DNA of 64,000 bases from positions 37,791 through 101,790 of the forward strand of contig JAJRUS010000047.1 in the NCBI GenBank assembly GCA_024277675.1. The letters are read 5' to 3'. Of the stretch, positions 22,362 to 54,527 are shown piece after piece. A program made the position numbers and the translations under genes. The notes under the pieces are model-generated. The model saw only the letters and a program-made list of their open reading frames with translations. It did no database searches and was not told the DNA's origin. Positions within the stretch are counted from its first letter, which is position 1; the number at the start of each line of letters is the position of its first letter. The DNA comes from a bacterium (GTDB lineage: Bacteria > SZUA-182 > SZUA-191 > JAJRXT01).

Positions 22362-22853
22362 TTGGGATTTAATCATCATATCATAAAAGGATATGTTAAC
22401 CAGATGAAGGCCTCGGTTCATTTTTATAGTTCATGGTTGTTGGGAGGGATTGTTTATAAATTATCACAATCGGTGGGAATCTCTATGGCGGCATTTTTAA
22501 GTACTATCTTAATAGATATAGATCATGTGTTTGATTTTATAATCTTTTCCGGAGAAAAATTTTCCATTAAGAATATATTCAGTTGGTGTAATCATGGACG
22601 CTGGTAAAGGGTGGCCTTGATTTTTCATTCATATGAGCTTTATTTTTTATTAGGGGTTATAGCCTATTATTTTCCCGCTGAGATAATGACAGGATTAATG
22701 ATTGGAATAGGGGGTCATCTCATATTAGATCAAAGCTGGAATTGTCATCTGCGCAAAGATTATTATTTGTCGCCCTGGTTTTATTTTTTAACCTATCGGA
22801 TTTACGCCGGGTTTCATAAAGATAAATTACGCATTGAATTTGGGAGGCAATAA
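22362..22853 (+). pseudogene. YdjM/DUF457-like membrane-bound metal-dependent hydrolase, interrupted by in-frame TAA at 22608..22610
   Basis: ORFs 22362..22607 and 22611..22853 share one frame and are separated only by TAA. The joined 164-aa product has ILIDIDHVFDF and GGHLILD motifs resembling YdjM family. Matches the family size. Confidence 0.5.
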
Positions 22854-23752: not shown

Positions 23753-23837
23753 TATTTAAACTAGGCTATTGGCATTATATAGTTTATACTATGTTTTTAT
23801 CAGCTCTATTGAAATAGTCATTGATAATGGGAAGATA

Positions 23838-25250
23838 ATGAGACGTAATTTATTTTTTAGCTATATGTTATTTGGTAGTCTTCTTATCGCAGGTTGTATC
23901 AGCACCCTCAGGTTATATTCCGGTCCAGAATTACCCCGGGATAAAATCGCTAAAGTAATAATAGAATCCCCTTTATTACTATATGCAGTGGACAGGAACC
24001 CCCCATTTTACAATCAGCGGCGAAGTATAGTAGCCTGGGAACTGGAGCTGCTTCCCGGATATCATACAATTACCCTTAAGTATAATTCAAATATCAACGG
24101 CCAATCCCTGTTAACGGAAAAAACTATTCCGGTAAAATTTTTGGCTAAAGCCGGACATACATATCGCGCCATGTCTTCCACTGACTGGAATACAAAGAAT
24201 ACGCAAACTTTTAAGGTCTGGTTTGATGACGAAACGCAGGCAGTTCTTAGCGCAGTTGAGCCTAAACCGAAAGATATTAATTCAGCCTTAATAGAGGCGA
24301 TAAAAAAAGGCGATTTAAATGCCGCCAGAACGCTCATGGAGAAAGGCGCTGATGTAAATAACCGGGATGCGGGTGGTTGGACGCCCTTAATGTATGCGGT
24401 TAGAAATAATCAGAACTATCTCGTACATGTGATGCTGATTAAAGGCGCTGATGTAAACGCAACCACCGAGCTGGGCACGACAGCCTTCATGTTGGCGGCC
24501 GGTACCGGCCAGAAAGATATCTTACAAGCTATGCTGGATAAGGGCGCTGATCTGAATGCAAAAGACAGGGCCGGCTGGACACCCATAATGCTGGCCACCA
24601 GAAACGGTCATGCCGGTATCGTGAAATTTTTGCAGAATAAGGGCGCCGATGTAAATGCAGAAACAGAGACTGGGCTGACCGCCTTTCTCTTGGCGGTAGA
24701 AAAGGGTCGGCTGGAGATTGTAGAAACCCTATTAAATAAAACCGCCGATATTGACCTGGCGCTTGAGGATGGGACAACCCCCTTGATATCTGCGGCCAAA
24801 AGTGGCCATATCGATATTGCCAAGGCCTTGTTAGGTAAGGGCGCCGATGTAAATTTAAAGACTGATGCCGGGGTAACGGCTTTAATGTATGCCGCTAAAG
24901 AGGGCTACACTGACATTGCAGAAGCTATCCTGGCTAAAAATGTCAATATAAATGCAAAAGACAATCACCAGGTAACCGCTTTGATGGAAGCCGCCGCTGG
25001 CGGCCACACTGATATCGTACGGTTACTACTATATAAAGGGGCTGAGGTAAATATCAAAAACAATGACGGTACAACAGCTTTAATGTTGGCAGCAATCGAG
25101 GGTCACACCGCTGTTCTACAGGCACTGCTGGATAAGGGCGCTGATTTAAACCAGCAGGATAACTATGGCCGAACGGCCTTAACCCTGGCGGCCAGGAATC
25201 TCCAAACGGGGGCGGTTATATTGCTTAAAGAGGCTGGAGCAAAAGAATAA
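23838..25250 (+). CDS. Ankyrin-repeat lipoprotein (about 10 ANK repeats)
   Basis: Start moved to the in-frame ATG giving MRRNLFFSYMLFGSLLIAGC (lipobox). Repeated (G)ADVNAKD..G.T(P/A)LM(L/Y)AA...GH motifs. Confidence 0.8.
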   Translation: MRRNLFFSYMLFGSLLIAGCISTLRLYSGPELPRDKIAKVIIESPLLLYAVDRNPPFYNQRRSIVAWELELLPGYHTITLKYNSNINGQSLLTEKTIPVKFLAKAGHTYRAMSSTDWNTKNTQTFKVWFDDETQAVLSAVEPKPKDINSALIEAIKKGDLNAARTLMEKGADVNNRDAGGWTPLMYAVRNNQNYLVHVMLIKGADVNATTELGTTAFMLAAGTGQKDILQAMLDKGADLNAKDRAGWTPIMLATRNGHAGIVKFLQNKGADVNAETETGLTAFLLAVEKGRLEIVETLLNKTADIDLALEDGTTPLISAAKSGHIDIAKALLGKGADVNLKTDAGVTALMYAAKEGYTDIAEAILAKNVNINAKDNHQVTALMEAAAGGHTDIVRLLLYKGAEVNIKNNDGTTALMLAAIEGHTAVLQALLDKGADLNQQDNYGRTALTLAARNLQTGAVILLKEAGAKE

Positions 25251-29221: not shown

Positions 29222-30022
29222 CTAAGGTACTGATTTGGCACACCTGAAGCCAACATTTTCATCATCGGTAATAGGGGTAAATTTACTACGCATAGTAGTA
29301 AGTGCATCATATTTGGCATCCATAAATGAGCCGCCTCGCAATACGTAACGCTCCTTACCGTAGAACTCATCTTCATGCTTATTACCGGGGTACGGCAGAT
29401 AATTATCGGCGGTCCACTCCCACACATTGCCGGCCATATCATAACAACCGTATGGACTGACCCCCTTAGGGTAACTGCCTACCTTGGTGGTGCCGCGTTT
29501 TCTGGATTTTTCAAAGTTTAATTTCTTCCTGGAGAATTTATTCCCCCAGGGAAACAATCTGCCGTCGGCGCCGCGGGCGGCCTTTTCCCATTCAGCTTCA
29601 GTAGGCAAGCGTTTACCCACCCATTCACAATAAGCCACCGCATTTTCCCAATTAACATACACCACCGGGTGTTTGCCCTTACCCCTGGGCATATCCCCGC
29701 CGGCATCCTCCCAGCTAAGCGGAATCGCCGCCCCGGTAGCCGCTATAAACTTTTTATACTCGTCATTAGTTACTTCGTATTTATCAATATAAACGGCATC
29801 CACATTAACCTTATGTGCCGGGGTAGCGCTGTCATGGTACTTAACCATTCCCCCCAAAGTGCCGACTATTTTTTCCAGCCGGGCCTCATCTATACCCATA
29901 GTAAATTCACCGGCCGGCACCAATACCATTCCAGTTGGAACATCCTCCGCAGCCACGGATTTAATATAAAAAACCAACAAACATATCACTAAAACAACAA
30001 GTTTTTTCTTACTCATAAACAC
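29222..30022 (-). CDS. Secreted formylglycine-generating enzyme (FGE/SUMF1) family protein
   Basis: 266 aa. Signal peptide. VNWENAVAYCEWVGKRLPTEAEWEKAARG...GNVWEWT...GFRCA motifs. Confidence 0.85.
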   Translation of the reverse strand: MFMSKKKLVVLVICLLVFYIKSVAAEDVPTGMVLVPAGEFTMGIDEARLEKIVGTLGGMVKYHDSATPAHKVNVDAVYIDKYEVTNDEYKKFIAATGAAIPLSWEDAGGDMPRGKGKHPVVYVNWENAVAYCEWVGKRLPTEAEWEKAARGADGRLFPWGNKFSRKKLNFEKSRKRGTTKVGSYPKGVSPYGCYDMAGNVWEWTADNYLPYPGNKHEDEFYGKERYVLRGGSFMDAKYDALTTMRSKFTPITDDENVGFRCAKSVP

Positions 30023-30096: not shown

Positions 30097-31098
30097 TTAA
30101 CGGGCACAACGAAATCCCACATCATCATAAATACCATCAGCCTTCAGCTTTTTACGATAAATGGTAGTGGCCATAAAGGGTTTTGACTTAAATGATCCTC
30201 CCCGGGCAACCCGCAGGTTTTGGTCCGCTGCTTCAACACTTAGGGCAGAGCCCGGATATGGTTTATACTTGTCGGCAGTCCATTCCCACACATTACCGGC
30301 CATATCATAGCAATCAAATTTACTGATTCCTTTCTCATACCTGCCGGTAATAGTGGGGGCGTTGAATCTTTCTCCTTTTGTATTAGTCCAGGCCCCTCGA
30401 AATTTTCGTCCCCAGGGAAAATAGAAGCTCTTTTTCCCGCCGCTGGCGGCTATTTCCCATTCCGCCTCAGTAGGCAGTCGCTTTTTTGCCCACTTGCAAT
30501 AGGCGGCTGCATCACTCCAGCTTACATTAACTACGGGATAGTCATCCTGATTCCTGCGGTAAGCGCCTCCGCGCCAGTGCCGTGGAGCCGGATGATGGGC
30601 AGCCTTTATGAATTTCTTGTAGCGGCTGTTGGTAACTTCATATTTGTCAATACGGAAAGCCTTCAATTTCACCGTATGTTTAGGAACGGATGCCAGGTAA
30701 TCCTTCTCGGAACCGCCTATGTTTTTGAGAATCCATTTTATTCTTTTTTGATCAATTCCCATGCTGTATTCGTCGGCAGGAATTGATACCATCCGGCTTC
30801 GGTCCTGATCGGCTCTAACCAGCGACAGGTTCACCTCGGCAACGGCGCCGGCAAATATCTCTATATTAGCCGTCTCCTGTAAATAGCCGCTGGTTTCCGC
30901 AATAATTACATGCTTGCCGACGTCTATATTTATTTTCAGCTTTTTGGTAGTAGCTAAATGAGCCGCCTGACCATCAATGAAAATATAGGCTTCCGGAATA
31001 CACTTAATTATCAACTTACCCACCTCGGCCCTGGCGATTGAATTACCAATCAGTAAAAACATCCCGCCTATTAACCAGCCTGCCAAAAAATTTTTCAT
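30097..31098 (-). CDS. Secreted PEGA-like domain + FGE/SUMF1 domain protein
   Basis: 333 aa. Signal peptide. N-terminal beta-rich PEGA-like segment (GKLIIKCIPEAYIFIDG...VGKHVIIAE). C-terminal VNVSWSDAAAYCKWAKKRLPTEAEWE...GNVWEWT...GFRCA. Confidence 0.8.
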   Translation of the reverse strand: MKNFLAGWLIGGMFLLIGNSIARAEVGKLIIKCIPEAYIFIDGQAAHLATTKKLKINIDVGKHVIIAETSGYLQETANIEIFAGAVAEVNLSLVRADQDRSRMVSIPADEYSMGIDQKRIKWILKNIGGSEKDYLASVPKHTVKLKAFRIDKYEVTNSRYKKFIKAAHHPAPRHWRGGAYRRNQDDYPVVNVSWSDAAAYCKWAKKRLPTEAEWEIAASGGKKSFYFPWGRKFRGAWTNTKGERFNAPTITGRYEKGISKFDCYDMAGNVWEWTADKYKPYPGSALSVEAADQNLRVARGGSFKSKPFMATTIYRKKLKADGIYDDVGFRCAR

Positions 31099-31144: not shown

Positions 31145-32014
31145 TTATTTTACGGTTACACAACTAATGCCAACTTCCTTGGGACTGTTTCCGGTATCAT
31201 CAAAATCGCGATCTATGCAACGCAAGTAAAACTTAACGTTTAAAACCGACCCGCCTCGCACTACTTTATAAAAACCGGTCTCAGGCCCCGTCGGGTTTTT
31301 ATTCGGGCTATACTTATAATATCCGGGATCATACCAATCAGCTACCCATTCAGCCACATTACCGGCCATGTCCAAGGCCCCATATGCTGAAAAACCTTGA
31401 GGCTTGCTGCCCACGGGTTGATACGTCCGGTTTCCATCCCATTGCCGGCCGAAGGGAATATTTATCGACTCAGGCGGTTGGTTGCCCCAGGGATAAAGTC
31501 TTTCGTCAATCCCCCGAGCGGCTTTCTCCCATTCCGCTTCAGTGGCTAAGCGCTTACCCGCCCACTTGCAATAGCTGTCTGCATCCTGCCAACTCACATC
31601 AACCACCGGATAATTATCCAATCCAGCCGGAAAGCCAGCCTTGCTCCAGATATCAAATTCCGGATCGCTGGTATGCGCCGGTATTCGATGATTAGTAGCC
31701 TGCACAAACTTAAAATATTGAGCATTTGTAATCTCATGTTTGTCAATGTAAAAGGCATCCAGATAAACCTTATGTGCCGGTTTTTCGTCATTATAATAAG
31801 GTTTATCGGTGCCCATTACAAACTCTCCCGCCGGCACCAGCATCATCAGGGATCCATCTTTTTTATTAAGCCGGGTAGCCGGCAAACCAGCGGCCACAGC
31901 TAAACCGGGAAAGAAAAAACAAAATGTCAATATTCCCGGTAAACATCGCCTGCCAATAATTACGGCGCTTTTGGTACGACCTTTTTTTGTCTCTGGCCCG
32001 GTATCAATCGGCAT
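31145..32014 (-). CDS. Exported FGE/SUMF1 family protein
   Basis: 289 aa. Hydrophobic N-terminus. VDVSWQDADSYCKWAGKRLATEAEWEKAARG...GNVAEWV... Confidence 0.8.
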   Translation of the reverse strand: MPIDTGPETKKGRTKSAVIIGRRCLPGILTFCFFFPGLAVAAGLPATRLNKKDGSLMMLVPAGEFVMGTDKPYYNDEKPAHKVYLDAFYIDKHEITNAQYFKFVQATNHRIPAHTSDPEFDIWSKAGFPAGLDNYPVVDVSWQDADSYCKWAGKRLATEAEWEKAARGIDERLYPWGNQPPESINIPFGRQWDGNRTYQPVGSKPQGFSAYGALDMAGNVAEWVADWYDPGYYKYSPNKNPTGPETGFYKVVRGGSVLNVKFYLRCIDRDFDDTGNSPKEVGISCVTVK

Positions 32015-32693: not shown

Positions 32694-33689
32694 CTAAAAC
32701 CGTGCCAACAGTTTCCAGTATTCATCCAGCATCTGGAAGAAGCGGGGTTTGCTTTGCAGGGTATGCATTAGTCGGCGGAAATTAGCGCTACCAGGCAAGC
32801 TTTGAGTGTACCAGATAAGATGCTTTCTTATATGTAATAAGGCTGGTTCAAAGCCGTAATACCGACCAAATAACTCAAAATGACGGATTATAACCGATTT
32901 TCTCTCCGCCAAACCGGGCGCCGGGGGGCAATGGCCGGAAGCTAAATATCGGCCTGTTTGATCAAATATCCAGGGATTTCCCCTGGCCGCCCGGCCTATC
33001 ATAACGCCGTCGCAGCCGGTTTGGCTTAACATGCGGCCGGCATCCAGCGGCGTTTTAACATCTCCATTACCGATTACCGTACAGGATACCGTTTCTTTTA
33101 GTTTTCTTATAAGTTGCCAATCGGCCGCCCCGGTAAATCCTTGAGTCCTGGTGCGTCCATGTATGCTAATGGCGTCTACCCCGCAACCCTCAGCAATACG
33201 GGCAATTTCCAGCGCATTAATTTGGGCGGTATCCCAACCGGCTCGAATCTTAACCGTCAACGGAACATTAACCGCCCGGCGAACCTTTTTTAGAATTCGC
33301 TCGACCAGGCGCGGCTCTCTCATAAGTGCAGAACCCGCCCCGCTCCTTACCACCTTCTTCACCGGACAGCCCATATTAATATCTATTAAATCCGCCCCGT
33401 TTTCGGCGGCGATTATAGCCCCTGCTGCCAATATGTCGGGATCGGCCCCAAACAATTGCACCGCCAGAGGTTTTTCTGCCGGATGACTCATTAAATAACG
33501 GTTATTATGCTTAAAGTGATGTACCAAACCGTGGCTGCTCACCATCTCACTAAACACCAGCCCACAGCCATATTCTTTGGCCAGCAGTCTGAAAGGCAGA
33601 TTAGTGATGCCCGCCATAGGGGCCAATATAAGCGGATTTTTTAGTTTCAGCTTACCAATTTGCATAAGGCTTACAGGTATTTCCCCCAA
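32694..33689 (-). CDS. dusB: tRNA-dihydrouridine synthase
   Basis: 331 aa. LAPMAGITNLPFRLL, DINMGCPVKKV, IGNGDV motifs. Confidence 0.9.
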   Translation of the reverse strand: MGEIPVSLMQIGKLKLKNPLILAPMAGITNLPFRLLAKEYGCGLVFSEMVSSHGLVHHFKHNNRYLMSHPAEKPLAVQLFGADPDILAAGAIIAAENGADLIDINMGCPVKKVVRSGAGSALMREPRLVERILKKVRRAVNVPLTVKIRAGWDTAQINALEIARIAEGCGVDAISIHGRTRTQGFTGAADWQLIRKLKETVSCTVIGNGDVKTPLDAGRMLSQTGCDGVMIGRAARGNPWIFDQTGRYLASGHCPPAPGLAERKSVIIRHFELFGRYYGFEPALLHIRKHLIWYTQSLPGSANFRRLMHTLQSKPRFFQMLDEYWKLLARF

Positions 33690-34753
33690 CCCTTATCCCT
33701 TAACATATTCACCAGTTGCTTAATCTCCTGGGCCCGTTCGGCGTTACAAACCAACAATACATCCTCAGTTTCCACAATTATTATGTTTTCCAACCCGATG
33801 GTGGCTACCGGTTTATTGGGTGAGTGGATGATTATATCTTTACTGTCCAGCCCCAGGTGCCGCCCCAAGGTTACATTGCCGGCTTCATCTGCCGGGAACA
33901 CCTCCCGCAAACTGGGCCAGCTTCCCACATCATTCCAGCCCAGATCACCCCTTACCACCACTGTATGAGGGTATTTCTCCATAATGCCATAGTCAATGGA
34001 AATGGACGGCAGACGCGGATAAACACCGGCCAGGCTTGATTCTTGCTGCGGCGTCCCCAAAGCAGGCTCAATGCCGAGTAACGATTTATAAATATCCGGC
34101 AGGTATTGTTCGAAGGCGGACAATATAACTTCACTTCGCCATACAAAAATGCCGCTGTTCCATAAGGCGCCGTCAGCTAAATATTTTTCAGCCTCGGTCA
34201 ATTCCGGCTTTTCGGTAAAGGTTTTGACTTTATATGCTTTAAGCCCTGCCGAATGCGCTATCTCGTCCGCCAGCAGAATATACCCATAACCGGTATGCGG
34301 AGACTGAGGCTTTACCCCCAAGGTAACCAGACAATCATCAGTCTCAGCTAATGAAGCCGCCATAAGCAGCGCTTGCTTAAATTCATCGGTATCTTGAATC
34401 AAGTGATCGGCCGGCATCACCACCATTACGGCTTGTGGGTCGGATTTTTTAAGATATAAAGCTGCCAGCGCAATGCAGGGGGCGGTATTACGCCCAATTG
34501 GCTCCACTAAGATATTCTGGCGGGGGATTTGGGGTAGTTGCTGCCGGATAGCATCCGCCTGATTAGCGGCGGTTACCACCAACACCCGTTCGGCAGGGAT
34601 AATATCAGCCAAACGCTGTACGGTCTGCTGAATAAGGCTCAGCTCGCCCCCCAGTCTGATTAGTTGCTTGGGATATTTGGCCCGACTTAAGGGCCAGAAG
34701 CGAGTGCCTGAGCCACCAGCCATTATTACCGCATATAGTGACTTATTTGCCAA
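33671..34753 (-). CDS. manC: Mannose-1-phosphate guanylyltransferase (GDP-mannose pyrophosphorylase)
   Basis: YAVIMAGGSGTRFWPLSR nucleotidyl-transferase motif. Start placed at TTG 34753..34751 to remove a 47-nt overlap with the upstream gene. The longest ORF extends to 34801. Confidence 0.8.
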   Translation of the reverse strand: MANKSLYAVIMAGGSGTRFWPLSRAKYPKQLIRLGGELSLIQQTVQRLADIIPAERVLVVTAANQADAIRQQLPQIPRQNILVEPIGRNTAPCIALAALYLKKSDPQAVMVVMPADHLIQDTDEFKQALLMAASLAETDDCLVTLGVKPQSPHTGYGYILLADEIAHSAGLKAYKVKTFTEKPELTEAEKYLADGALWNSGIFVWRSEVILSAFEQYLPDIYKSLLGIEPALGTPQQESSLAGVYPRLPSISIDYGIMEKYPHTVVVRGDLGWNDVGSWPSLREVFPADEAGNVTLGRHLGLDSKDIIIHSPNKPVATIGLENIIIVETEDVLLVCNAERAQEIKQLVNMLRDKGWGKYL

Positions 34754-34754
34754 T

Positions 34755-35681
34755 TTAGTATGGATTATCTTCCTCTTCCCGTTCCAGTATGTTGCCGACA
34801 ATGCGCTCTATCTCTCTAGCTGGAGAAGAATATGGGGCTTGCAGTAAAAAGGGGGTCATGGTCTTAACCGATTTACGTATCGCCTGATCGCTATAGACAC
34901 ACCCCACAAAATTTACCTTAATATTCAAGTACTTCTCGGCTACCAGCTTTACTGCGCCCACGCTTTCTTGTTCTTCCCGGGTGGTTATCATATTTGTAAT
35001 TATCTGGGGTCTGAAGTTATCCAACAGCCGGCAGAAATCAGACCTCAGGTCGCCATTGTCAGTTCCCAGTCTGCTAATCAGCTCCGCCATGGATTCAATG
35101 CTTCTTACGCTTTTGGGTTTGCCCAGTTCTCGCAACAGTTCACAAATGAAATCATTTTTTCGGATATACATCCGGGTTAATTTTCTGAACAAAGCGGTTT
35201 TGATAAAACCGTAAGCATTCTGGATAGAGGTAGGATCAGGGGTAACCACTACCAGGCGCTCATCGGCAACCGAGAAGAAATCCAATACATTAAAGGAAGT
35301 ACCCGCTCCCAGATCCAGCAATATATAGTCAACATCCAGTCTTGACAAATGGTTAATAAGTTTAAGTTTCTGGGTATATTTGGGATTGGCCAATCCCAGG
35401 ATGGCGCTGGCGCCGCTGATTAGTTTCAGATTATCGACACCCACATCCTGCAGTATTTCTGCTAAGGATTTCCGCCGGCTGAGAAAATCATTCAGTGTGT
35501 ATTTAGTGGCCCGCAATCCGAGGACAATATGAAGGTTGGAACCTCCTAAATCGGCATCTACCAGCACCACCCGTTTACCCGTGTGAGCTAAGGCGATTGC
35601 CAGATTAGCGGTAATTATTGTTTTACCTACGCCTCCCTTTCCCCCGCCTACAGCCCATATTTTTTTACCGATCATGCTCAA
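34755..35681 (-). CDS. MinD/ParA/FlhG-family P-loop ATPase
   Basis: 308 aa. GGGKGGVGKT deviant Walker A. VLVDADL. Confidence 0.75.
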   Translation of the reverse strand: MSMIGKKIWAVGGGKGGVGKTIITANLAIALAHTGKRVVLVDADLGGSNLHIVLGLRATKYTLNDFLSRRKSLAEILQDVGVDNLKLISGASAILGLANPKYTQKLKLINHLSRLDVDYILLDLGAGTSFNVLDFFSVADERLVVVTPDPTSIQNAYGFIKTALFRKLTRMYIRKNDFICELLRELGKPKSVRSIESMAELISRLGTDNGDLRSDFCRLLDNFRPQIITNMITTREEQESVGAVKLVAEKYLNIKVNFVGCVYSDQAIRKSVKTMTPFLLQAPYSSPAREIERIVGNILEREEEDNPY

Positions 35682-37058: not shown

Positions 37059-38078
37059 ATGGCGATATTTGATAAAGACAATAAAAACAAACAGCAAAGC
37101 CCCTGGGACAAGCTTTCCAGCGGTTCCAATCTACCCAAACTTCCGCAGATCAAGCTGCCCAATGCAGGGATAATTTTACTGATATTTTTAGTTCTCTGGC
37201 TGGCCAGCGGCATTTTCGTAGTGGGGCCTGATGAGCAGGGAGTGGTAAGGCGGTTTGGCAAGTTGACAAGGTTGGCGATGCCGGGCATAAGCTGGCATTT
37301 TCCCTCACCGATAGAGGAAGTGGATGTCCCTAAAATTACCGAGGTAAAGCGGGTTGAAGTTGGCTTTCGTACCCGTGATCCGGGGCCGCCGGCCATTTAT
37401 CAGGATGTGTTACCCGAAGCGCTTATGTTGACCAGCGATGAGAATATAATCAGCGTACAGTTTGTAGTGCAATATATGATCAAAGATGCTCCGGCCTATT
37501 TATTCAACGTGCGGAACGTTGATAAAACCGTACGCAATGCCTCAGAAGCGGCCATGCGGGAAGTAATAGGCAAAACCAATATCGATGAAGCGCTGACTGT
37601 GGCCCAGGCCAGTGTTCAGGAAAGTGTCCGAGAATTACTGCAACAGATACTGGATAGCTATAAGGCCGGTTTGAAGGTAAGCCTGGTACAACTGCAGGAA
37701 GTGAAGGTGCCGAGACAGGTAATCCAGGCCTTTGAAGATGTGGTTAATGCCAAAAAAGACAAAAAAAGGTTAATCAACGAATCGCAAGGGTATCAGGAGG
37801 ATGTGTTGCCCAAGGCCCGCGGCCGGGCAGCACAAATTTTAAAACAAGCTGAAGCCTACCGGGACAAAAAAGTAAAGCACGCCCTGGGAGATGCCAAAAA
37901 GTTCCTTGAAATTCTCAAAGAATACCGCAAGGCCAAGAATATTACCAGAAAAAGACTGTTTATTGAAACCATGGAAGAAGTCCTGCCTTCAATGGAGAAG
38001 GTTATTGTGGATAAAAATGTCAAAGGCGGAATATTACCGCTGTTGCAATTGAAACCAGCTACTAAATCCGCTAAATAG
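37059..38078 (+). CDS. hflK: FtsH protease modulator HflK (SPFH/band 7)
   Basis: 339 aa. N-terminal TM. SPFH domain. Followed by hflC. Confidence 0.85.
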   Translation: MAIFDKDNKNKQQSPWDKLSSGSNLPKLPQIKLPNAGIILLIFLVLWLASGIFVVGPDEQGVVRRFGKLTRLAMPGISWHFPSPIEEVDVPKITEVKRVEVGFRTRDPGPPAIYQDVLPEALMLTSDENIISVQFVVQYMIKDAPAYLFNVRNVDKTVRNASEAAMREVIGKTNIDEALTVAQASVQESVRELLQQILDSYKAGLKVSLVQLQEVKVPRQVIQAFEDVVNAKKDKKRLINESQGYQEDVLPKARGRAAQILKQAEAYRDKKVKHALGDAKKFLEILKEYRKAKNITRKRLFIETMEEVLPSMEKVIVDKNVKGGILPLLQLKPATKSAK

Positions 38079-38091
38079 GGATGGCCCACAT

Positions 38092-38946
38092 ATGAATAGA
38101 AAATTGTCCATTATTCTTATTGCCCTGTTTGCGGTGATGTTTGCCGCCAATCTGGTCTTATTTACCGTAGATGAGCGGCAACAAGTGGTAATTACCCGTT
38201 TCGGCAAGCCGATAAAAGTAATTAAAGAGCCGGGGCTGTACATTAAAAGCCCACTGGAGCAAACTACTTTATTTGACGACCGTTTATTGGATTACGACTC
38301 CCTGCCGGCCAAAATTTATACCAAGGATAAACAATTGCTGGTGGTAGATAACTACTGCAAGTGGAGAATAACGGATGCGTTATTGTTTTTACAATCAGTA
38401 ATGAATGAACGTTCTGCCCAGACGCGCATCGATGATATTGTGTTCTCTGAGTTGAGGTAGCGGTTGAAGCATTATACTCTAACCAATGTGGTCTCCACCG
38501 ACCGTGAGTTAATACTGAAATCAGTAACTGAGGCCAGCCGGAAAAAGGCTATAAAATTAGGCATTGGGATAGTCGATGTACGCATTAAACGGGCCGATCT
38601 GCCGGATGAAAACGCCAAGCATCTATATGGTGAAATGCGGGCTGAACGTGAGAAACAGGCCAAAAAATACCGCTCCGAAGGCGAAGAAGAGGCGGTTAAA
38701 ATAAGGGCCGCTACCGATGAAGAAAGGGTGAAAATTCTGGCTACGGCTTATCAGCAGGAACAGGAAATAAAAGGTAGAGGGGATGCCGAGGCCACCCGCA
38801 TTTATGCCGAGGCTTATAAGCAAGACCCTGAATTCTTTGCTTTCACTCGTTCATTGGATGCTTACAAAAAGACACTGAAATCACAAACCACGCTGGTCGT
38901 CTCGCCCGACAGCGAATTCCTGCAATACCTGCAAAAATCCCGCTGA
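38092..38946 (+). pseudogene. hflC: FtsH protease modulator HflC, interrupted by in-frame TAG at 38458..38460
   Basis: ORFs 38092..38460 and 38464..38946 share one frame. The joined 283-aa product aligns along its length with E. coli HflC (e.g. VDVRIKRADLP...RAEREKQAKKYRSEGEEEA...GRGDAEATRIYAEAY...FFAFTRSL). The stop falls in ...IVFSELR*RLKHY... Confidence 0.6.
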
Positions 38947-38969: not shown

Positions 38970-40418
38970 CTAAAATTCCAGTTGCTTTTCCGGCTTATGC
39001 CGTTCAGCTTGTTTAAATGTTTTATCGGTTAAATATGCCGGCGGTCGTTCGATTTTATTGTTCTGTAACAAATCACCTATGGTTATTATTTGGATTTTGG
39101 GAAATTGCTTATCCCAAATGGGGGGTTTATAATATCCTTGTGAGACGGCATAACTTTTCATCGGTTTGGTAGGTTCAGCCAAAGTGATAAACACCCCCAT
39201 TTGAGCATGGTTACTATCCACCACCGAACAGAAATCCCTGATCTGGGCTACTCCCACCTGTCGGCCACCTTTAACCTGCACCAATATTGATTTAATCTTG
39301 TTTGTTTTATCATCTTGAAAGTAGATTACCCCATCTATACCTCTGTCGGCTCCCTTCTTTTTACCTCCCATTGGCCTTGCGCCAATTAAACTCAAAGCCC
39401 ACCATTCAAACTGGTGTTTGTTGGCTTGCGCCAGGGCTTCGGCTCCGGCTAAATCCACCGGCTCACCGATAACCCTATATGGCAAATCACCATATTTATC
39501 CTTTAACCTGTTTTTTATCAAAGCGATAGCCAGATGAGTAATGTCTATACCGATCCACTGCCGGTTCAGTTCCTGAGCTGCGTCTATGGCAGTGCCACAA
39601 CCGCAGAACGGGTCTAACACTATATCTCCCTCGTTGCTGCTGGCCAGTATAATTCGCCGCAGCAATTCCAGCGGTTTTTGGGTGGGATAACCCAGTCGTT
39701 CTTTGGCCGAGGGGGCTATTATTGGAACTTCCCAAACATCATCAGGATGTTTACCCAACGGATGGAGACTTTGTTCTCCAAAATCTATGCCGTTTCTTAT
39801 GTTGCCTATATAATGTTTGAATCTTTCCTTAGTTGTATCTGCATATGGAACTCGTACATCATCAGCGTTAAACTTCCAGTTTACGCCCTTTGTATAATAG
39901 AAAATAATGTCATGTCTTCTGCCATATCTTTTAGGGGAAATACCAGCACCTTTATAGTACCAAACAATTTCATTCTGAAATCCTCCTCCTCCAAATATAA
40001 TATCCAATATAATCTTCAAATAATGGCTGGCGTTAGGGTCGCAGTGCAAGTATAATGCACCATTTTCTTTAAGAACCCTATGCAACTCCACCAAGCGGAT
40101 AGCCATCATAGTTAAATAAGTCATGGTGTCGCTCTCGCCCATAAACCCGCGAAAACCTCGCATTAACTCTACCAACTTGGCGGGGGCATATTCTGTCATC
40201 AGATGGTAAGCTTTCTCAGAAGTTTCTCCCCAATGCCAGCTATCGCTAAAAGCTTCCACCTGAGCTGCCGATTCAGCGCCGCCGGTATCTTTAAATAATA
40301 CATTATAATTTCGCTTGCTGTTAAACGGAGGGTCTAAATAAATTAAGTCCACACTCTCATCACTTATATATTCGCCTAACACATCCAGATTATCCCCATA
40401 GTAAAGACAATTAGTCAT
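38970..40418 (-). CDS. Beta-class N6A/N4C DNA methyltransferase fused to a C-terminal Mrr-like (PD-(D/E)xK) nuclease domain
   Basis: 482 aa. Motif IV DLIYLDPPFNS near the N-terminus, then motif I VLDPFCGCGTA (beta order). C-terminal DRGIDGVIYF...LVQVKGG resembles the Mrr catalytic core. Markedly AT-rich. Confidence 0.75.
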   Translation of the reverse strand: MTNCLYYGDNLDVLGEYISDESVDLIYLDPPFNSKRNYNVLFKDTGGAESAAQVEAFSDSWHWGETSEKAYHLMTEYAPAKLVELMRGFRGFMGESDTMTYLTMMAIRLVELHRVLKENGALYLHCDPNASHYLKIILDIIFGGGGFQNEIVWYYKGAGISPKRYGRRHDIIFYYTKGVNWKFNADDVRVPYADTTKERFKHYIGNIRNGIDFGEQSLHPLGKHPDDVWEVPIIAPSAKERLGYPTQKPLELLRRIILASSNEGDIVLDPFCGCGTAIDAAQELNRQWIGIDITHLAIALIKNRLKDKYGDLPYRVIGEPVDLAGAEALAQANKHQFEWWALSLIGARPMGGKKKGADRGIDGVIYFQDDKTNKIKSILVQVKGGRQVGVAQIRDFCSVVDSNHAQMGVFITLAEPTKPMKSYAVSQGYYKPPIWDKQFPKIQIITIGDLLQNNKIERPPAYLTDKTFKQAERHKPEKQLEF

Positions 40419-51139: not shown

Positions 51140-51904
51140 ATGCATAATTCTAAAAAATCTAAAGCCCTGTGGATAGGATTTATTATAATTTGTCTGGTGG
51201 GTATATATTTTAAAGCGGCCCACGCCAAAGCGCCCCAGGATATGGTACTCATCCCGGCCGGTGAATTTACCATGGGCAGTGAGGATGGTGATAAGGATGA
51301 ACTTCCACAGCGCCAGGTATACCTGGATGCCTTCTATATAGCTAAATATGAGGTTACCAATGCCCAATACCGTAAGTTCGTTAAAGCTACCGGTTATAGA
51401 GAGCCATATGGCTGGGATGATAAAAATTTTAATCAGCCCAATCAACCGGTAGTCGGTGTTTCATGGGAGGATGCAGCGGCATATTGCAAATGGGCCGGCC
51501 GGCGCCTACCCACTGAAGCCGAATGGGAAAAGGCGGCCCGCGGCGACGGGGGCTGGATATTTCCCTGGGGCCAGGATTGGAATAAGCAAAATGCCAACAG
51601 CTCATCATTGGACAAGCATAAAACTGCGCCGGTGGGCAGTTATCCTCAAGGAGTAAGTTCCTATGGGGTATATGATATGGCCGGCAATGTATGGGAATGG
51701 TGTGCTGATTGGTATGTAGCCGATTATTATCTCCTGGGTCCCGGGCGGAATCCCCCCGGTCCTTCAACCAGTGATTCGAAAGTAATCCGTGGCGGCGGCT
51801 GGTTTGATTCCCCTACCCAGTTGCGCACCACCAACCGCTATTACAGTCATCCGATGGTAAGGTACAACGGCATTGGTTTCCGCTGTGCCAAGGATTATAA
51901 ATAA
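51140..51904 (+). CDS. Exported FGE/SUMF1 family protein (fourth paralog)
   Basis: 254 aa. Signal peptide. VGVSWEDAAAYCKWAGRRLPTEAEWEKAARG...GNVWEWCADW...GFRCA. Starts 4 nt after the proS stop. Confidence 0.85.
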   Translation: MHNSKKSKALWIGFIIICLVGIYFKAAHAKAPQDMVLIPAGEFTMGSEDGDKDELPQRQVYLDAFYIAKYEVTNAQYRKFVKATGYREPYGWDDKNFNQPNQPVVGVSWEDAAAYCKWAGRRLPTEAEWEKAARGDGGWIFPWGQDWNKQNANSSSLDKHKTAPVGSYPQGVSSYGVYDMAGNVWEWCADWYVADYYLLGPGRNPPGPSTSDSKVIRGGGWFDSPTQLRTTNRYYSHPMVRYNGIGFRCAKDYK

Positions 51905-53689: not shown

Positions 53690-54475
53690 ATGGACTGTGA
53701 AAAATTCAGCCAGGAAATAGAGCTTATCTCTTTCCTCGAAGAAGATAATATCCGGTTGGAAGAGGCAATCGAACACTTAAAAAGTTGTCCTCACTGCCAG
53801 GAAAAAAAGCTGGCTAGTCGACAACTGGATAAGCTGATCGAGGAAAAAATGCAGGATGTACCTACCCCGCCCTTCCTCGCCAGTCGTATTCTAAATCAAA
53901 TCAAGAGTTCCGCTGAGCCACCCCGGAGAACATGGCGCTGGGGTTATGCACTGGGGGTGGCGGTTATTTGTTTGCTGGCCTTCGTCGGTTACAATCAAAC
54001 CCGGATTTTATCGCGGATAAATGGACTATATCTCCCCCGGCCAGCCGGCGCTTCGCAAAATTTGCAACCCAGCCATTATGCTTTGCTGAACATTATAGCT
54101 ACCATGTCGGCTAAACGCCATCAAAATATTATTTCCAGCCGTTTTGTGGTTTTTGACGACAACCTGGCCAATAAAAGTTTTAAAAGCAAATTCAGTTTTA
54201 AAATAGCCCTGCCGGATTTTTCCGGCAAGCTAAGATTGGTGGGTGGAAGTAAATGTCATTCCTGTAGCTATGAAGTAGCCTACTTATTATATAGAATTGA
54301 TTCCGACGGCGTTTCACTAGATTCCGACAGCGTTTCGCTCTGCGTGTCTTCTGCCAGCAACCTCGGTCTGACTAACTGGAACGGTAAGCCGACGATATTT
54401 AAGAAGAATAATTATAATGTAGCTGTATGGAAAAAGGGCGGCCTGGTTTACGCCATGGTATCCCATATTCCTTAA
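53690..54475 (+). CDS. Putative zf-HC2 anti-sigma-factor-like membrane protein
   Basis: 261 aa. N-terminal HLKSCPHCQ zinc-finger anti-sigma motif. One TM (WGYALGVAVICLLAFVGY). Periplasmic C-domain. Contains an internal 21-bp tandem duplication. Confidence 0.45.
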   Translation: MDCEKFSQEIELISFLEEDNIRLEEAIEHLKSCPHCQEKKLASRQLDKLIEEKMQDVPTPPFLASRILNQIKSSAEPPRRTWRWGYALGVAVICLLAFVGYNQTRILSRINGLYLPRPAGASQNLQPSHYALLNIIATMSAKRHQNIISSRFVVFDDNLANKSFKSKFSFKIALPDFSGKLRLVGGSKCHSCSYEVAYLLYRIDSDGVSLDSDSVSLCVSSASNLGLTNWNGKPTIFKKNNYNVAVWKKGGLVYAMVSHIP

Positions 54476-54527
54476 AGTGAAGCCAAAAGCATTATATGGA
54501 ATTCACAACAGTAAGCAAAAACTCTCA

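What the first reader, a model, noticed from the sequence alone, without database searches (positions are those of the whole stretch)
38092..38946. hflC split by a single in-frame TAG (38458..38460) while downstream reading frame and conservation are intact
The two ORFs are in the same frame. Joined, they give a full-length HflC that aligns with E. coli HflC on both sides of the stop. The stop sits at a poorly conserved position (...SELR*RLKHY...). Either the gene is a very recent pseudogene, or this is a sequencing or assembly error, or the stop is read through. A second conserved gene in this window (22362..22853) is likewise interrupted by a lone in-frame TAA.
Basis: seen in the sequence. 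Interest (0 to 1): 0.5.

Follow-up and report, generated by a model that had tools for sequence, protein, structure and literature searches.

The report
Lone G-to-T stop codon in hflC
The hflC gene really is cut by one TAG, but it is one of at least nine identical-looking Glu/Gly-to-stop G-to-T changes in this assembly and two sibling assemblies. This points to a sequence error or a very recent oxidative-type mutation, not to read-through or a new genetic code.

Summary
hflC (38092..38946, +) carries a single in-frame TAG at 38458..38460. Joined, the two parts give a full-length 284-aa HflC, directly downstream of an intact hflK.

- **What the stop replaces.** All 15 closest homologues have Glu there (GAG or GAA in the two read at DNA level), so the TAG is one G-to-T change.
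- **Other stops in the window.** There are two more stops of the same kind. The other is TAA 54473..54475 in a hypothetical gene.
- **Stops in related assemblies.** Two related NCBI assemblies (GCA_024277605.1, GCA_024276125.1) carry six more, in hflK, a corrinoid protein, porA, yicC and a beta-helix protein.
- **Pattern.** Of the nine, seven replace Glu, one replaces Gly (GGA to TGA), and one is undetermined. No stop is shared between genomes, no frameshift was seen, and relatives from other projects have none.
- **Against recoding.** TAG and TAA are the normal terminators here, and hflK itself ends in TAG. hflC dN/dS is 0.04-0.09 in both halves. No suppressor tRNA or read-through structure was found.

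Most likely reading: G:C-to-T:A (8-oxoguanine-type) substitution errors in the assembly consensus. The main rival is real, very recent nonsense mutations with the same bias. Raw reads are needed to decide. Interest is low.

The parts
37059..38078 (+). hflK, intact (339 aa); ends in TAG at 38076..38078
   Evidence: TIGR01933 278.8 bits against a cutoff of 159.4. Same length as the L013 orthologue.
38092..38460 (+). hflC N-terminal part (122 codons plus the premature TAG): transmembrane segment and first part of the SPFH/Band_7 domain
38458..38460 (+). Premature TAG. The orthologous codon is GAG (L001) or GAA (L013), both Glu, so this is a single G-to-T change at 38458.
   Evidence: DNA alignment, protein alignment, tblastn.
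38461..38946 (+). hflC C-terminal part (rest of the SPFH domain, coiled coil, C-terminus). The deposited assembly has it called as a 160-aa protein from TTG 38464 (P0038).
   Evidence: dN/dS of this part is 0.039-0.087.
38454..38466 (+). GAGG (38454..38457), then TAG, CGG and TTG (38464..38466): a chance Shine-Dalgarno-like site plus start codon. It could allow re-initiation if the stop is real. GAGG simply encodes Leu-Arg and is also present in L013.
   Evidence: Read directly from the sequence. The function is inference only.
22404..22853 (+). YdjM-like small membrane protein gene, interrupted by TAA at 22605..22607. Homologues mostly have Glu there; the closest relative, L024, has GAG.
53690..54514 (+). 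Hypothetical gene with premature TAA at 54473..54475 (GAA, Glu, in the L028 orthologue). Twelve conserved codons (SEAKSIIWNSQQ) follow, up to the original stop at 54512..54514.

Best explanation
The TAG in hflC is most likely not a biological feature of the organism. I read it as one of many G:C-to-T:A substitution errors fixed in the consensus of this assembly. The same kind of change appears in two sibling NCBI metagenome-assembled genomes.

This is the signature of oxidised guanine (8-oxoG) pairing with A when damaged, low-input or pre-amplified DNA is copied. Such a change at the first base of GAA, GAG or GGA gives TAA, TAG or TGA. Only changes that create stops are visible by eye.

**Shown:**
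- The stop exists in the deposited sequence.
- It is a single G-to-T change from a clade-invariant Glu codon.
- All nine stops found are compatible with a first-position G-to-T change: eight replace Glu or Gly, and the ancestral residue of the ninth is unknown.
- The stops are private to each assembly and come without indels.
- The gene shows no relaxed constraint.

**Inferred:** that the changes arose in vitro or in assembly rather than in the cell.
For: **1. A single base change.** Window TAG against GAG in L001 and GAA in L013. Glu is present in all 15 closest homologues.

**2. Same change elsewhere in the window.**
- TAA 22605..22607 replaces Glu.
- TAA 54473..54475 replaces GAA, with 12 conserved codons still readable after it.

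**3. Same change in sibling assemblies.**
- L001 hflK: TAA for GAA.
- L001 beta-helix protein: TAA in 'PGTYT*NI', where the internal repeat reads 'GTYTENI'.
- L025 corrinoid protein: 'FIP*LL' against 'FIPELL'.
- L027 yicC: TAA aligned to Glu of PDB entry 8ver.
- L027 porA: TGA aligned to the conserved Gly of 9bt4 and 5c4i.

**4. A skewed spectrum.** With this window's codon usage, only 12-18% of all single-base routes to a stop are coding-strand G-to-T. Eight of eight therefore has P of about 1e-6 to 3e-8 under an ordinary spectrum.

**5. No decay.** No frameshift or indel was seen in any affected gene. hflC is 285 codons with no gap in all five relatives, and dN/dS is 0.04-0.09 in both halves, as between intact orthologues.

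**6. Private to each assembly.** No stop is shared between assemblies, which are about 13% diverged at the protein level.

**7. Restricted to one group of assemblies.**
- 6 stops in 55.7 kb of the two JAJR-prefix assemblies, against 0 in 47.5 kb of close relatives from JGI and ENA.
- Outside these assemblies, hflK and hflC are intact in about 39 other copies.

**8. Density against contiguity.** Density falls as contig length rises: 3 per 13 kb in an assembly with 3.7-14 kb contigs, 3 per 43 kb with 44-131 kb contigs, and 3 per 64 kb on a 107-kb contig.

**9. Implausible load if real.** The affected genes include central and housekeeping functions (porA, hflK, hflC, yicC).

**10. Known artefact.** Oxidative G-to-T artefacts of sample preparation are documented (PMC3616734). 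Whole-genome amplification is commonly used for magnetically enriched cells (PMC9376291), and the lineage carries MamS/MamX-like genes.
Against: - No reads, coverage or methods are available for this assembly, so an in-vitro origin is not demonstrated.
- The documented oxidative artefacts are low-frequency read errors. They reach a consensus only at very low coverage or after amplification from very few templates. A 107-kb contig argues against very low coverage.
- I could not show that the window's assembly belongs to the same submission as the two JAJR-prefix MAGs, because its record is hidden from look-ups.
- The spectrum of private substitutions in JAB-CBS-hflK-hflC shows no clear G-to-T excess in the window or L001 over the controls. 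The test has little power: about 2 extra changes would be expected against a background of about 5.
- I found no unrelated lineage from the same batch, so batch and lineage effects could not be separated.
- The window entered this analysis because of its stops. With that ascertainment removed, the hflK/hflC contrast is 1 of 5 against 0 of 39 (P about 0.11).
Confidence: 0.55

Rival explanations
1. The stops are real and very recent nonsense mutations, produced in vivo by a strong G:C-to-T:A bias. Possible causes are unrepaired 8-oxoG from a MutY/MutM-type defect, or iron-driven oxidative stress in a magnetosome-forming lineage. On this reading hflC is a nascent pseudogene or a high-frequency null allele. 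Alternatively it may be expressed as two polypeptides through re-initiation at TTG 38464 behind the GAGG at 38454..38457.
For: - The mutational signature is the same as for the artefact reading.
- The stop lies on a long (107-kb) contig, which suggests reasonable coverage.
- The stops occur in three related genomes of one lineage, and none was seen in the relatives sampled from other projects.
- All nine changes are G-to-T on the coding (non-transcribed) strand. This would fit transcription-associated damage, but 71% is expected anyway, so P is about 0.05.
- A Shine-Dalgarno-like site plus TTG directly follows the stop.
Against: - At least 1 nonsense change per 5-20 kb implies that roughly 5-30% of genes are knocked out, including porA, hflK, hflC and yicC. 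Yet there are no frameshifts and no sign of relaxed selection.
- That pattern is unlike known decaying genomes (my knowledge: these carry many indels).
- No stop is shared between the genomes, so such alleles would have to arise and be purged continually. Even so, each would have to be the majority allele in a population consensus.
- The GAGG upstream of TTG 38464 is just the Leu-Arg codons, also present in L013.
Confidence: 0.3
2. The stops are decoded and the genes are functional. Mechanisms could be a suppressor tRNA inserting Glu at UAR, pyrrolysine at UAG, or context-dependent read-through.
For: - Seven of nine stops sit at Glu positions, and the interrupted genes remain otherwise perfectly conserved.
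- The TAG is followed by C. From my knowledge of E. coli, this is a relatively weak termination context.
- Corrinoid and URO-D methyltransferase genes occur in relatives. Pyrrolysine (Pyl) systems are often found alongside such genes.
Against: - TAG ends 31% and TAA 53% of the larger genes in the window, including hflK 14 bases upstream of hflC.
- One in-frame stop is TGA at a conserved Gly, so no single suppressor explains the set. A first-position G-to-T change explains all of it.
- No in-frame stop is conserved in any orthologue. Established recoding sites are conserved.
- No suppressor tRNA or pyl gene is present in the 64-kb window or in about 100 kb of related loci (and Pfam).
- No stimulatory RNA structure follows the TAG.
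Confidence: 0.04
3. This is ordinary, unbiased pseudogenisation: independent chance nonsense mutations with no common cause.
For: Single nonsense mutations do occur in any genome. hflC is dispensable in laboratory E. coli (my knowledge).
Against: - Eight of eight determinable stops being coding-strand G-to-T has P of about 1e-6 or less under ordinary spectra.
- There are no transition-type stops (from CAR, CGA or TGG) and no frameshifts.
Confidence: 0.03

Closest known systems
HflC (FtsH protease modulator; TIGR01932, SPFH/Band_7), partner of HflK in the HflKC cage around FtsH (PDB 7vhp)
   Same: - The joined product passes the HflC equivalog model, and the Band_7 match spans the stop.
- It is 76-87% identical and equal in length to intact orthologues.
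- It aligns to E. coli HflC on both sides of the stop.
- It sits directly after hflK, in the conserved JAB-CBS-hflK-hflC order.
   Different: The reading frame is broken at codon 123, inside the SPFH domain, by a TAG that no orthologue has.
Oxidative (8-oxoguanine) G-to-T / C-to-A sequencing artefacts (Costello et al. 2013, PMC3616734)
   Same: All stops arise by an exclusive G-to-T substitution type, with no indels. They are scattered over unrelated genes and restricted to particular assemblies.
   Different: The published artefacts are low-allele-fraction read errors. Here the change is in the assembly consensus, which needs very low coverage or amplification from few templates. Read-orientation bias could not be examined.
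MutY/MutM-deficient mutator lineages (G:C-to-T:A transversion bias)
   Same: The same substitution class is expected to generate mainly Glu-to-stop and Gly-to-stop nonsense changes.
   Different: The repair genes could not be inspected. The implied load of null alleles in core genes is much higher than a free-living population would be expected to carry.
Stop-codon recoding (pyrrolysine at UAG; reassigned stop codons; suppressor tRNAs)
   Same: In-frame stops occur in otherwise intact, conserved genes.
   Different: The stops are not conserved between orthologues. All three stop codons are involved. TAG and TAA are the predominant true terminators. No decoding machinery was found.

Membership tests
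HflC (TIGR01932 equivalog) | Whole-protein score above the curated cutoff | tested here: met
   224 bits against a cutoff of 134.4 for the joined sequence.
HflC (TIGR01932 equivalog) | SPFH/Band_7 domain and genomic pairing with hflK | tested here: met
   PF01145 matches residues 25-198. hflK lies immediately upstream. The synteny is shared with L001, L013, L025 and L026.
HflC (TIGR01932 equivalog) | Uninterrupted reading frame giving one polypeptide | tested here: not met
   TAG at 38458..38460.
Decaying pseudogene | Relaxed constraint (raised dN/dS), indels or frameshifts, further stops | tested here: not met
   dN/dS is 0.04-0.09 in both halves. There are no gaps in the 285 codons, and only one stop. 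If real, the lesion is very recent.
Pyrrolysine decoding of UAG | In-frame TAG conserved in orthologues | tested here: not met
   Orthologues have GAG or GAA.
Pyrrolysine decoding of UAG | pylT and pylSBCD genes present | not testable with these tools
   None is present in the window or the fetched loci (and the Pfam calls).
Stop-codon reassignment (alternative genetic code) | The codon is not used as a terminator and appears in frame at conserved sense positions in many genes | tested here: not met
   TAG ends 15 and TAA ends 26 of 49 larger genes. Only 3 in-frame stops occur in 56 genes.
Programmed read-through | Conserved stop with a stimulatory downstream context or structure | tested here: not met
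   The stop is absent from all relatives. Folding gives z = -0.79.
8-oxoG-type G:C-to-T:A process (artefact or mutator) | All changes belong to the G-to-T / C-to-A class | tested here: met
   Eight of eight determinable stops derive from GAR or GGA by a first-base G-to-T change. P is about 1e-6 under ordinary spectra.
8-oxoG-type G:C-to-T:A process (artefact or mutator) | Artefact only: imbalance between read orientations, low allele fraction or low depth at the sites | not testable with these tools
   No reads or coverage are available.
8-oxoG-type G:C-to-T:A process (artefact or mutator) | Accompanying excess of G-to-T missense and silent changes | tested here: inconclusive
   Private G>T plus C>A counts: window 5 and L001 7, against controls of 3 and 10, in 877 codons. 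The expected excess is only about 2.

The most novel reading that the evidence does not exclude
The stops are real. On this reading, a magnetosome-bearing, iron-loaded lineage suffers intense in-vivo guanine oxidation on the non-transcribed strand. It carries many Glu/Gly-to-stop alleles in core genes at high frequency. These would be tolerated through polyploidy, through complementation between cells, or through re-initiation or near-cognate read-through. For HflC, re-initiation could give a two-piece SPFH protein that still assembles with HflK.
Probability: 0.1. Interest if true: 0.6.

Novelty: not a real feature. Interest (0 to 1): 0.15.

Why it matters
As biology it matters little: this is a single premature stop in a well-known gene, with no evidence of recoding.

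As data quality it is useful. The window carries at least three G-to-T stops. These imply about 40 hidden G:C-to-T:A changes in its 55 kb of coding sequence. Two sibling MAGs show the same lesion.

- Gene calls, pseudogene counts, 'split gene' annotations and dN/dS estimates from these assemblies should therefore be treated with caution.
- If reads proved the stops real, the lineage would be an unusual natural case of oxidative hypermutation with a heavy nonsense load.

Tried and rejected
1. **Source genome or same-species sequence.** Scans of genome contigs and metagenome contigs returned only relatives of 52% identity or less. No independent copy of the site could be inspected.
2. **Frameshifts.** Three adjacent TTG-start ORFs at 32694..35681 turned out to be separate genes: Dus, a nucleotidyl transferase and a ParA-like ATPase.
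3. **Suppressor tRNAs and RNA families.** Only tRNA-Ser(GCU) and tRNA-Gln(CUG) are in the window. Related loci hold just one tRNA, tRNA-Arg(CCU) in L013, and no suppressor.
4. **Read-through structure.** None was found.
5. **Private-substitution spectrum.** This test for hidden G-to-T changes was underpowered.
6. **Sequence context.** The nine sites share no motif beyond the stop codon itself, so a methylation-motif explanation is unsupported.
7. **Literature on the accessions.** Searches for GCA_024277605, JAJRUU and JAJRXT found nothing. The study and its methods remain unknown.
8. **Unrelated MAGs from the same NCBI batch.** The three attempts all fell in other projects.
9. **The YdjM-like gene.** It is not the orthologue of the YdjM gene in L013.

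Full report
**The observation**

The window has ORFs at 38092..38460 (122 aa) and 38464..38946 (160 aa) in one frame, separated by TAG 38458..38460 and one CGG codon.
- The joined 284-aa sequence scores 224 bits on the NCBIfam HflC equivalog TIGR01932 (cutoff 134.4). It carries a Band_7/SPFH domain that spans the stop.
- An intact hflK (339 aa, TIGR01933 279 bits) ends 14 bases upstream.
- The gene order JAB-CBS-hflK-hflC is shared with four relatives.

**What the stop replaces**

A database search found ten homologues of 76-87% identity, all exactly 284 aa.
- In the alignment, all 15 closest sequences read SELR-E-RLK. More distant ones have E, V or K, and E. coli HflC has Ser.
- At the DNA level the window's TAG corresponds to GAG in L001 (GCA_024277605.1) and GAA in L013 (a JGI metagenome). 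That is one G-to-T change at 38458.
- A 160-aa protein identical to the C-terminal ORF is on record from an NCBI contig of 107,177 bp (P0038). The deposited assembly therefore carries the same stop.
- That record could not be opened.

**Is the gene decaying?**

No.
- All five orthologous hflC genes align over 285 codons without a gap.
- dN/dS between the window and its relatives is 0.04-0.07 overall: 0.040-0.047 for the N-terminal part and 0.039-0.087 for the C-terminal part.
- Two intact orthologues give 0.056 between them.
- Synonymous sites are near saturation. The test therefore says only that the lesion is very young relative to the divergence, or not real.

**Other stops in the window**

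A scan for same-frame stops with at least 70 open codons on both sides found only two inside genes. Everything else was a gene junction or an antisense frame.
- **YdjM-like gene.** Homologues start at ATG 22404. Most have Glu at the stop position, and the closest relative (L024, also GCA_024277605.1) has GAG.
- **Hypothetical gene at 53690.** A tblastn cross-comparison with relatives showed a third case. TAA 54473..54475 lies where L028 has GAA. It is followed by 12 conserved codons (SEAKSIIWNSQQ) and the original stop.
- **Frameshifts.** No frameshift was found. Three suspicious overlapping TTG ORFs are separate genes.

**The same lesion in sibling assemblies**

In GCA_024277605.1:
- hflK is cut by TAA where the window and L013 have Glu (GAA in the window).
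- A large beta-helix protein is cut twice by TAA. One cut is at 'PGTYT*NI', where its own internal repeat reads 'GTYTENI'. The other is at an undeterminable position.

In GCA_024276125.1:
- A corrinoid protein reads 'FIP*LLIASDAF', against 'FIPELLIAADAF' in L013.
- yicC is cut by TAA at a position aligned to Glu of E. coli YicC (8ver).
- porA is cut by TGA at the conserved Gly of the TSxxG motif in 9bt4 and 5c4i, that is GGA to TGA.

The tally is nine lone stops: six TAA, two TAG and one TGA. Seven are at Glu, one at Gly and one is unknown. Every stop is private to one assembly. Close relatives from JGI and ENA (L013, L026, L028; 47.5 kb) have none. Outside the JAJR assemblies and the window, about 39 further hflK and hflC copies in the fetched loci are intact.

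**What unifies the stops**

Every determinable case is a G-to-T change at codon position 1.
- With the window's codon usage, only 12-18% of single-base routes to a stop are coding-strand G-to-T. Eight of eight therefore has P of about 1e-6 to 3e-8 under ordinary spectra.
- The transition-derived stops that normally dominate (from CAR, CGA and TGG) are absent, as are frameshifts.
- Within the G:C-to-T:A class, 71% of nonsense routes are coding-strand G-to-T, and 79% of those are Glu codons. The Glu bias therefore needs no special explanation.
- Three stops in the window imply about 40 such changes in its 55 kb of coding sequence.
- A direct test for them in 877 aligned codons was underpowered.

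**Recoding is not supported**

- TAG ends 15, TAA 26 and TGA 8 of the 49 genes of at least 150 aa. hflK itself ends in TAG.
- All three stop codons occur in frame, and two different amino acids are replaced.
- No site is conserved between orthologues.
- The window contains only tRNA-Ser(GCU) and tRNA-Gln(CUG). The related loci contain no suppressor tRNA.
- The 120 nt around and after the TAG fold no better than shuffles (z = -0.79).
- Pfam annotation of essentially all window genes shows ordinary housekeeping and envelope functions, with no pyl genes or release-factor oddities. The genes include obg, rplU, rpmA, proB, proS, truA, gpsA, mreCD, a PBP2-like gene and cobalamin genes.

**Artefact or real mutation?**

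Both readings share the 8-oxoguanine signature.

For an artefact:
- The load is high, at least one nonsense change per 5-20 kb, and it falls in core genes such as porA, hflK, hflC and yicC.
- There are no indels and no relaxed constraint.
- The stops are restricted to assemblies with neighbouring WGS prefixes (JAJRUU, JAJRXT).
- Density is highest in the most fragmented assembly.
- Oxidative G-to-T artefacts are documented (PMC3616734).
- Whole-genome amplification from few cells is common for magnetically enriched bacteria (PMC9376291). This lineage carries MamS/MamX-like genes.

Against an artefact:
- Such artefacts are normally rare per read, and the window lies on a 107-kb contig.
- I have no reads, coverage or methods.
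- I could not show that the window's assembly belongs to the same batch.
- I could not find an unrelated MAG from that batch.

I put the artefact reading at about 0.55, real recent G-to-T mutations at about 0.3, and recoding or read-through at about 0.04.

If the stop is real, GAGG (38454..38457) followed six bases later by TTG 38464 could allow re-initiation and a two-piece HflC. This is inference only, and the GAGG is just the Leu-Arg codons.

**Verdict**

Of its three interpretations, read-through can be set aside. The other two await read-level data. There is no new biological system here. The useful result is a warning about G-to-T lesions in this assembly and its siblings.

Noticed in passing
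TAA lies where the L028 orthologue has GAA (Glu). Twelve conserved codons and the original stop follow.
   Followed up: yes
L001:5687..5689, L001:2106..2108, L001:2982..2984, L025:12293..12295, L027:508..510, L027:5884..5886: Six lone in-frame stops in two related NCBI MAGs (GCA_024277605.1, GCA_024276125.1). The affected genes are hflK, a beta-helix protein (two stops), a corrinoid protein, porA and yicC. Five of the six replace Glu or Gly by a first-base G-to-T change; for L001:2106..2108 the replaced residue could not be determined.
   Followed up: yes
L027:806..2016 (-): Two genes with MamS_MamX (PF26390) domains in the relative GCA_024276125.1. This suggests that the lineage is magnetotactic. 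No magnetosome genes were seen in the window itself.
   Followed up: no
window, all genes: Unusual terminator usage. TAG ends about 31% of the larger genes and TGA only about 16%. In most bacteria TAG is the rarest stop (my knowledge).
   Followed up: partly
window 38970..40418 (-): An N6/N4 DNA methylase fused to an Mrr-type restriction-endonuclease domain sits directly after hflC. It is absent at this position in L001 (an HD-domain gene follows), L013 (a corrinoid protein) and L025. It is probably an inserted restriction-modification-like gene.
   Followed up: no
window 29222..30022, 30097..31098, 31145..32014 (-) and 51140..51904 (+): Four paralogous FGE-sulfatase (formylglycine-generating-enzyme-like) genes, three of them in tandem.
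   Followed up: no
window 23769..25250 (+); L025:14166..17027: A 493-aa ankyrin-repeat protein in the window and an LRR-Roc/Ras-like protein in a relative. Both are eukaryote-like repeat proteins.
   Followed up: no
L025:8137..9912: In GCA_024276125.1 a PMT_2 glycosyltransferase gene is inserted between hflK and hflC, which are adjacent elsewhere.
   Followed up: no
The nearest named ProS relatives (62-66%) are Deltaproteobacteria/Desulfobacterota-like MAGs.
   Followed up: partly
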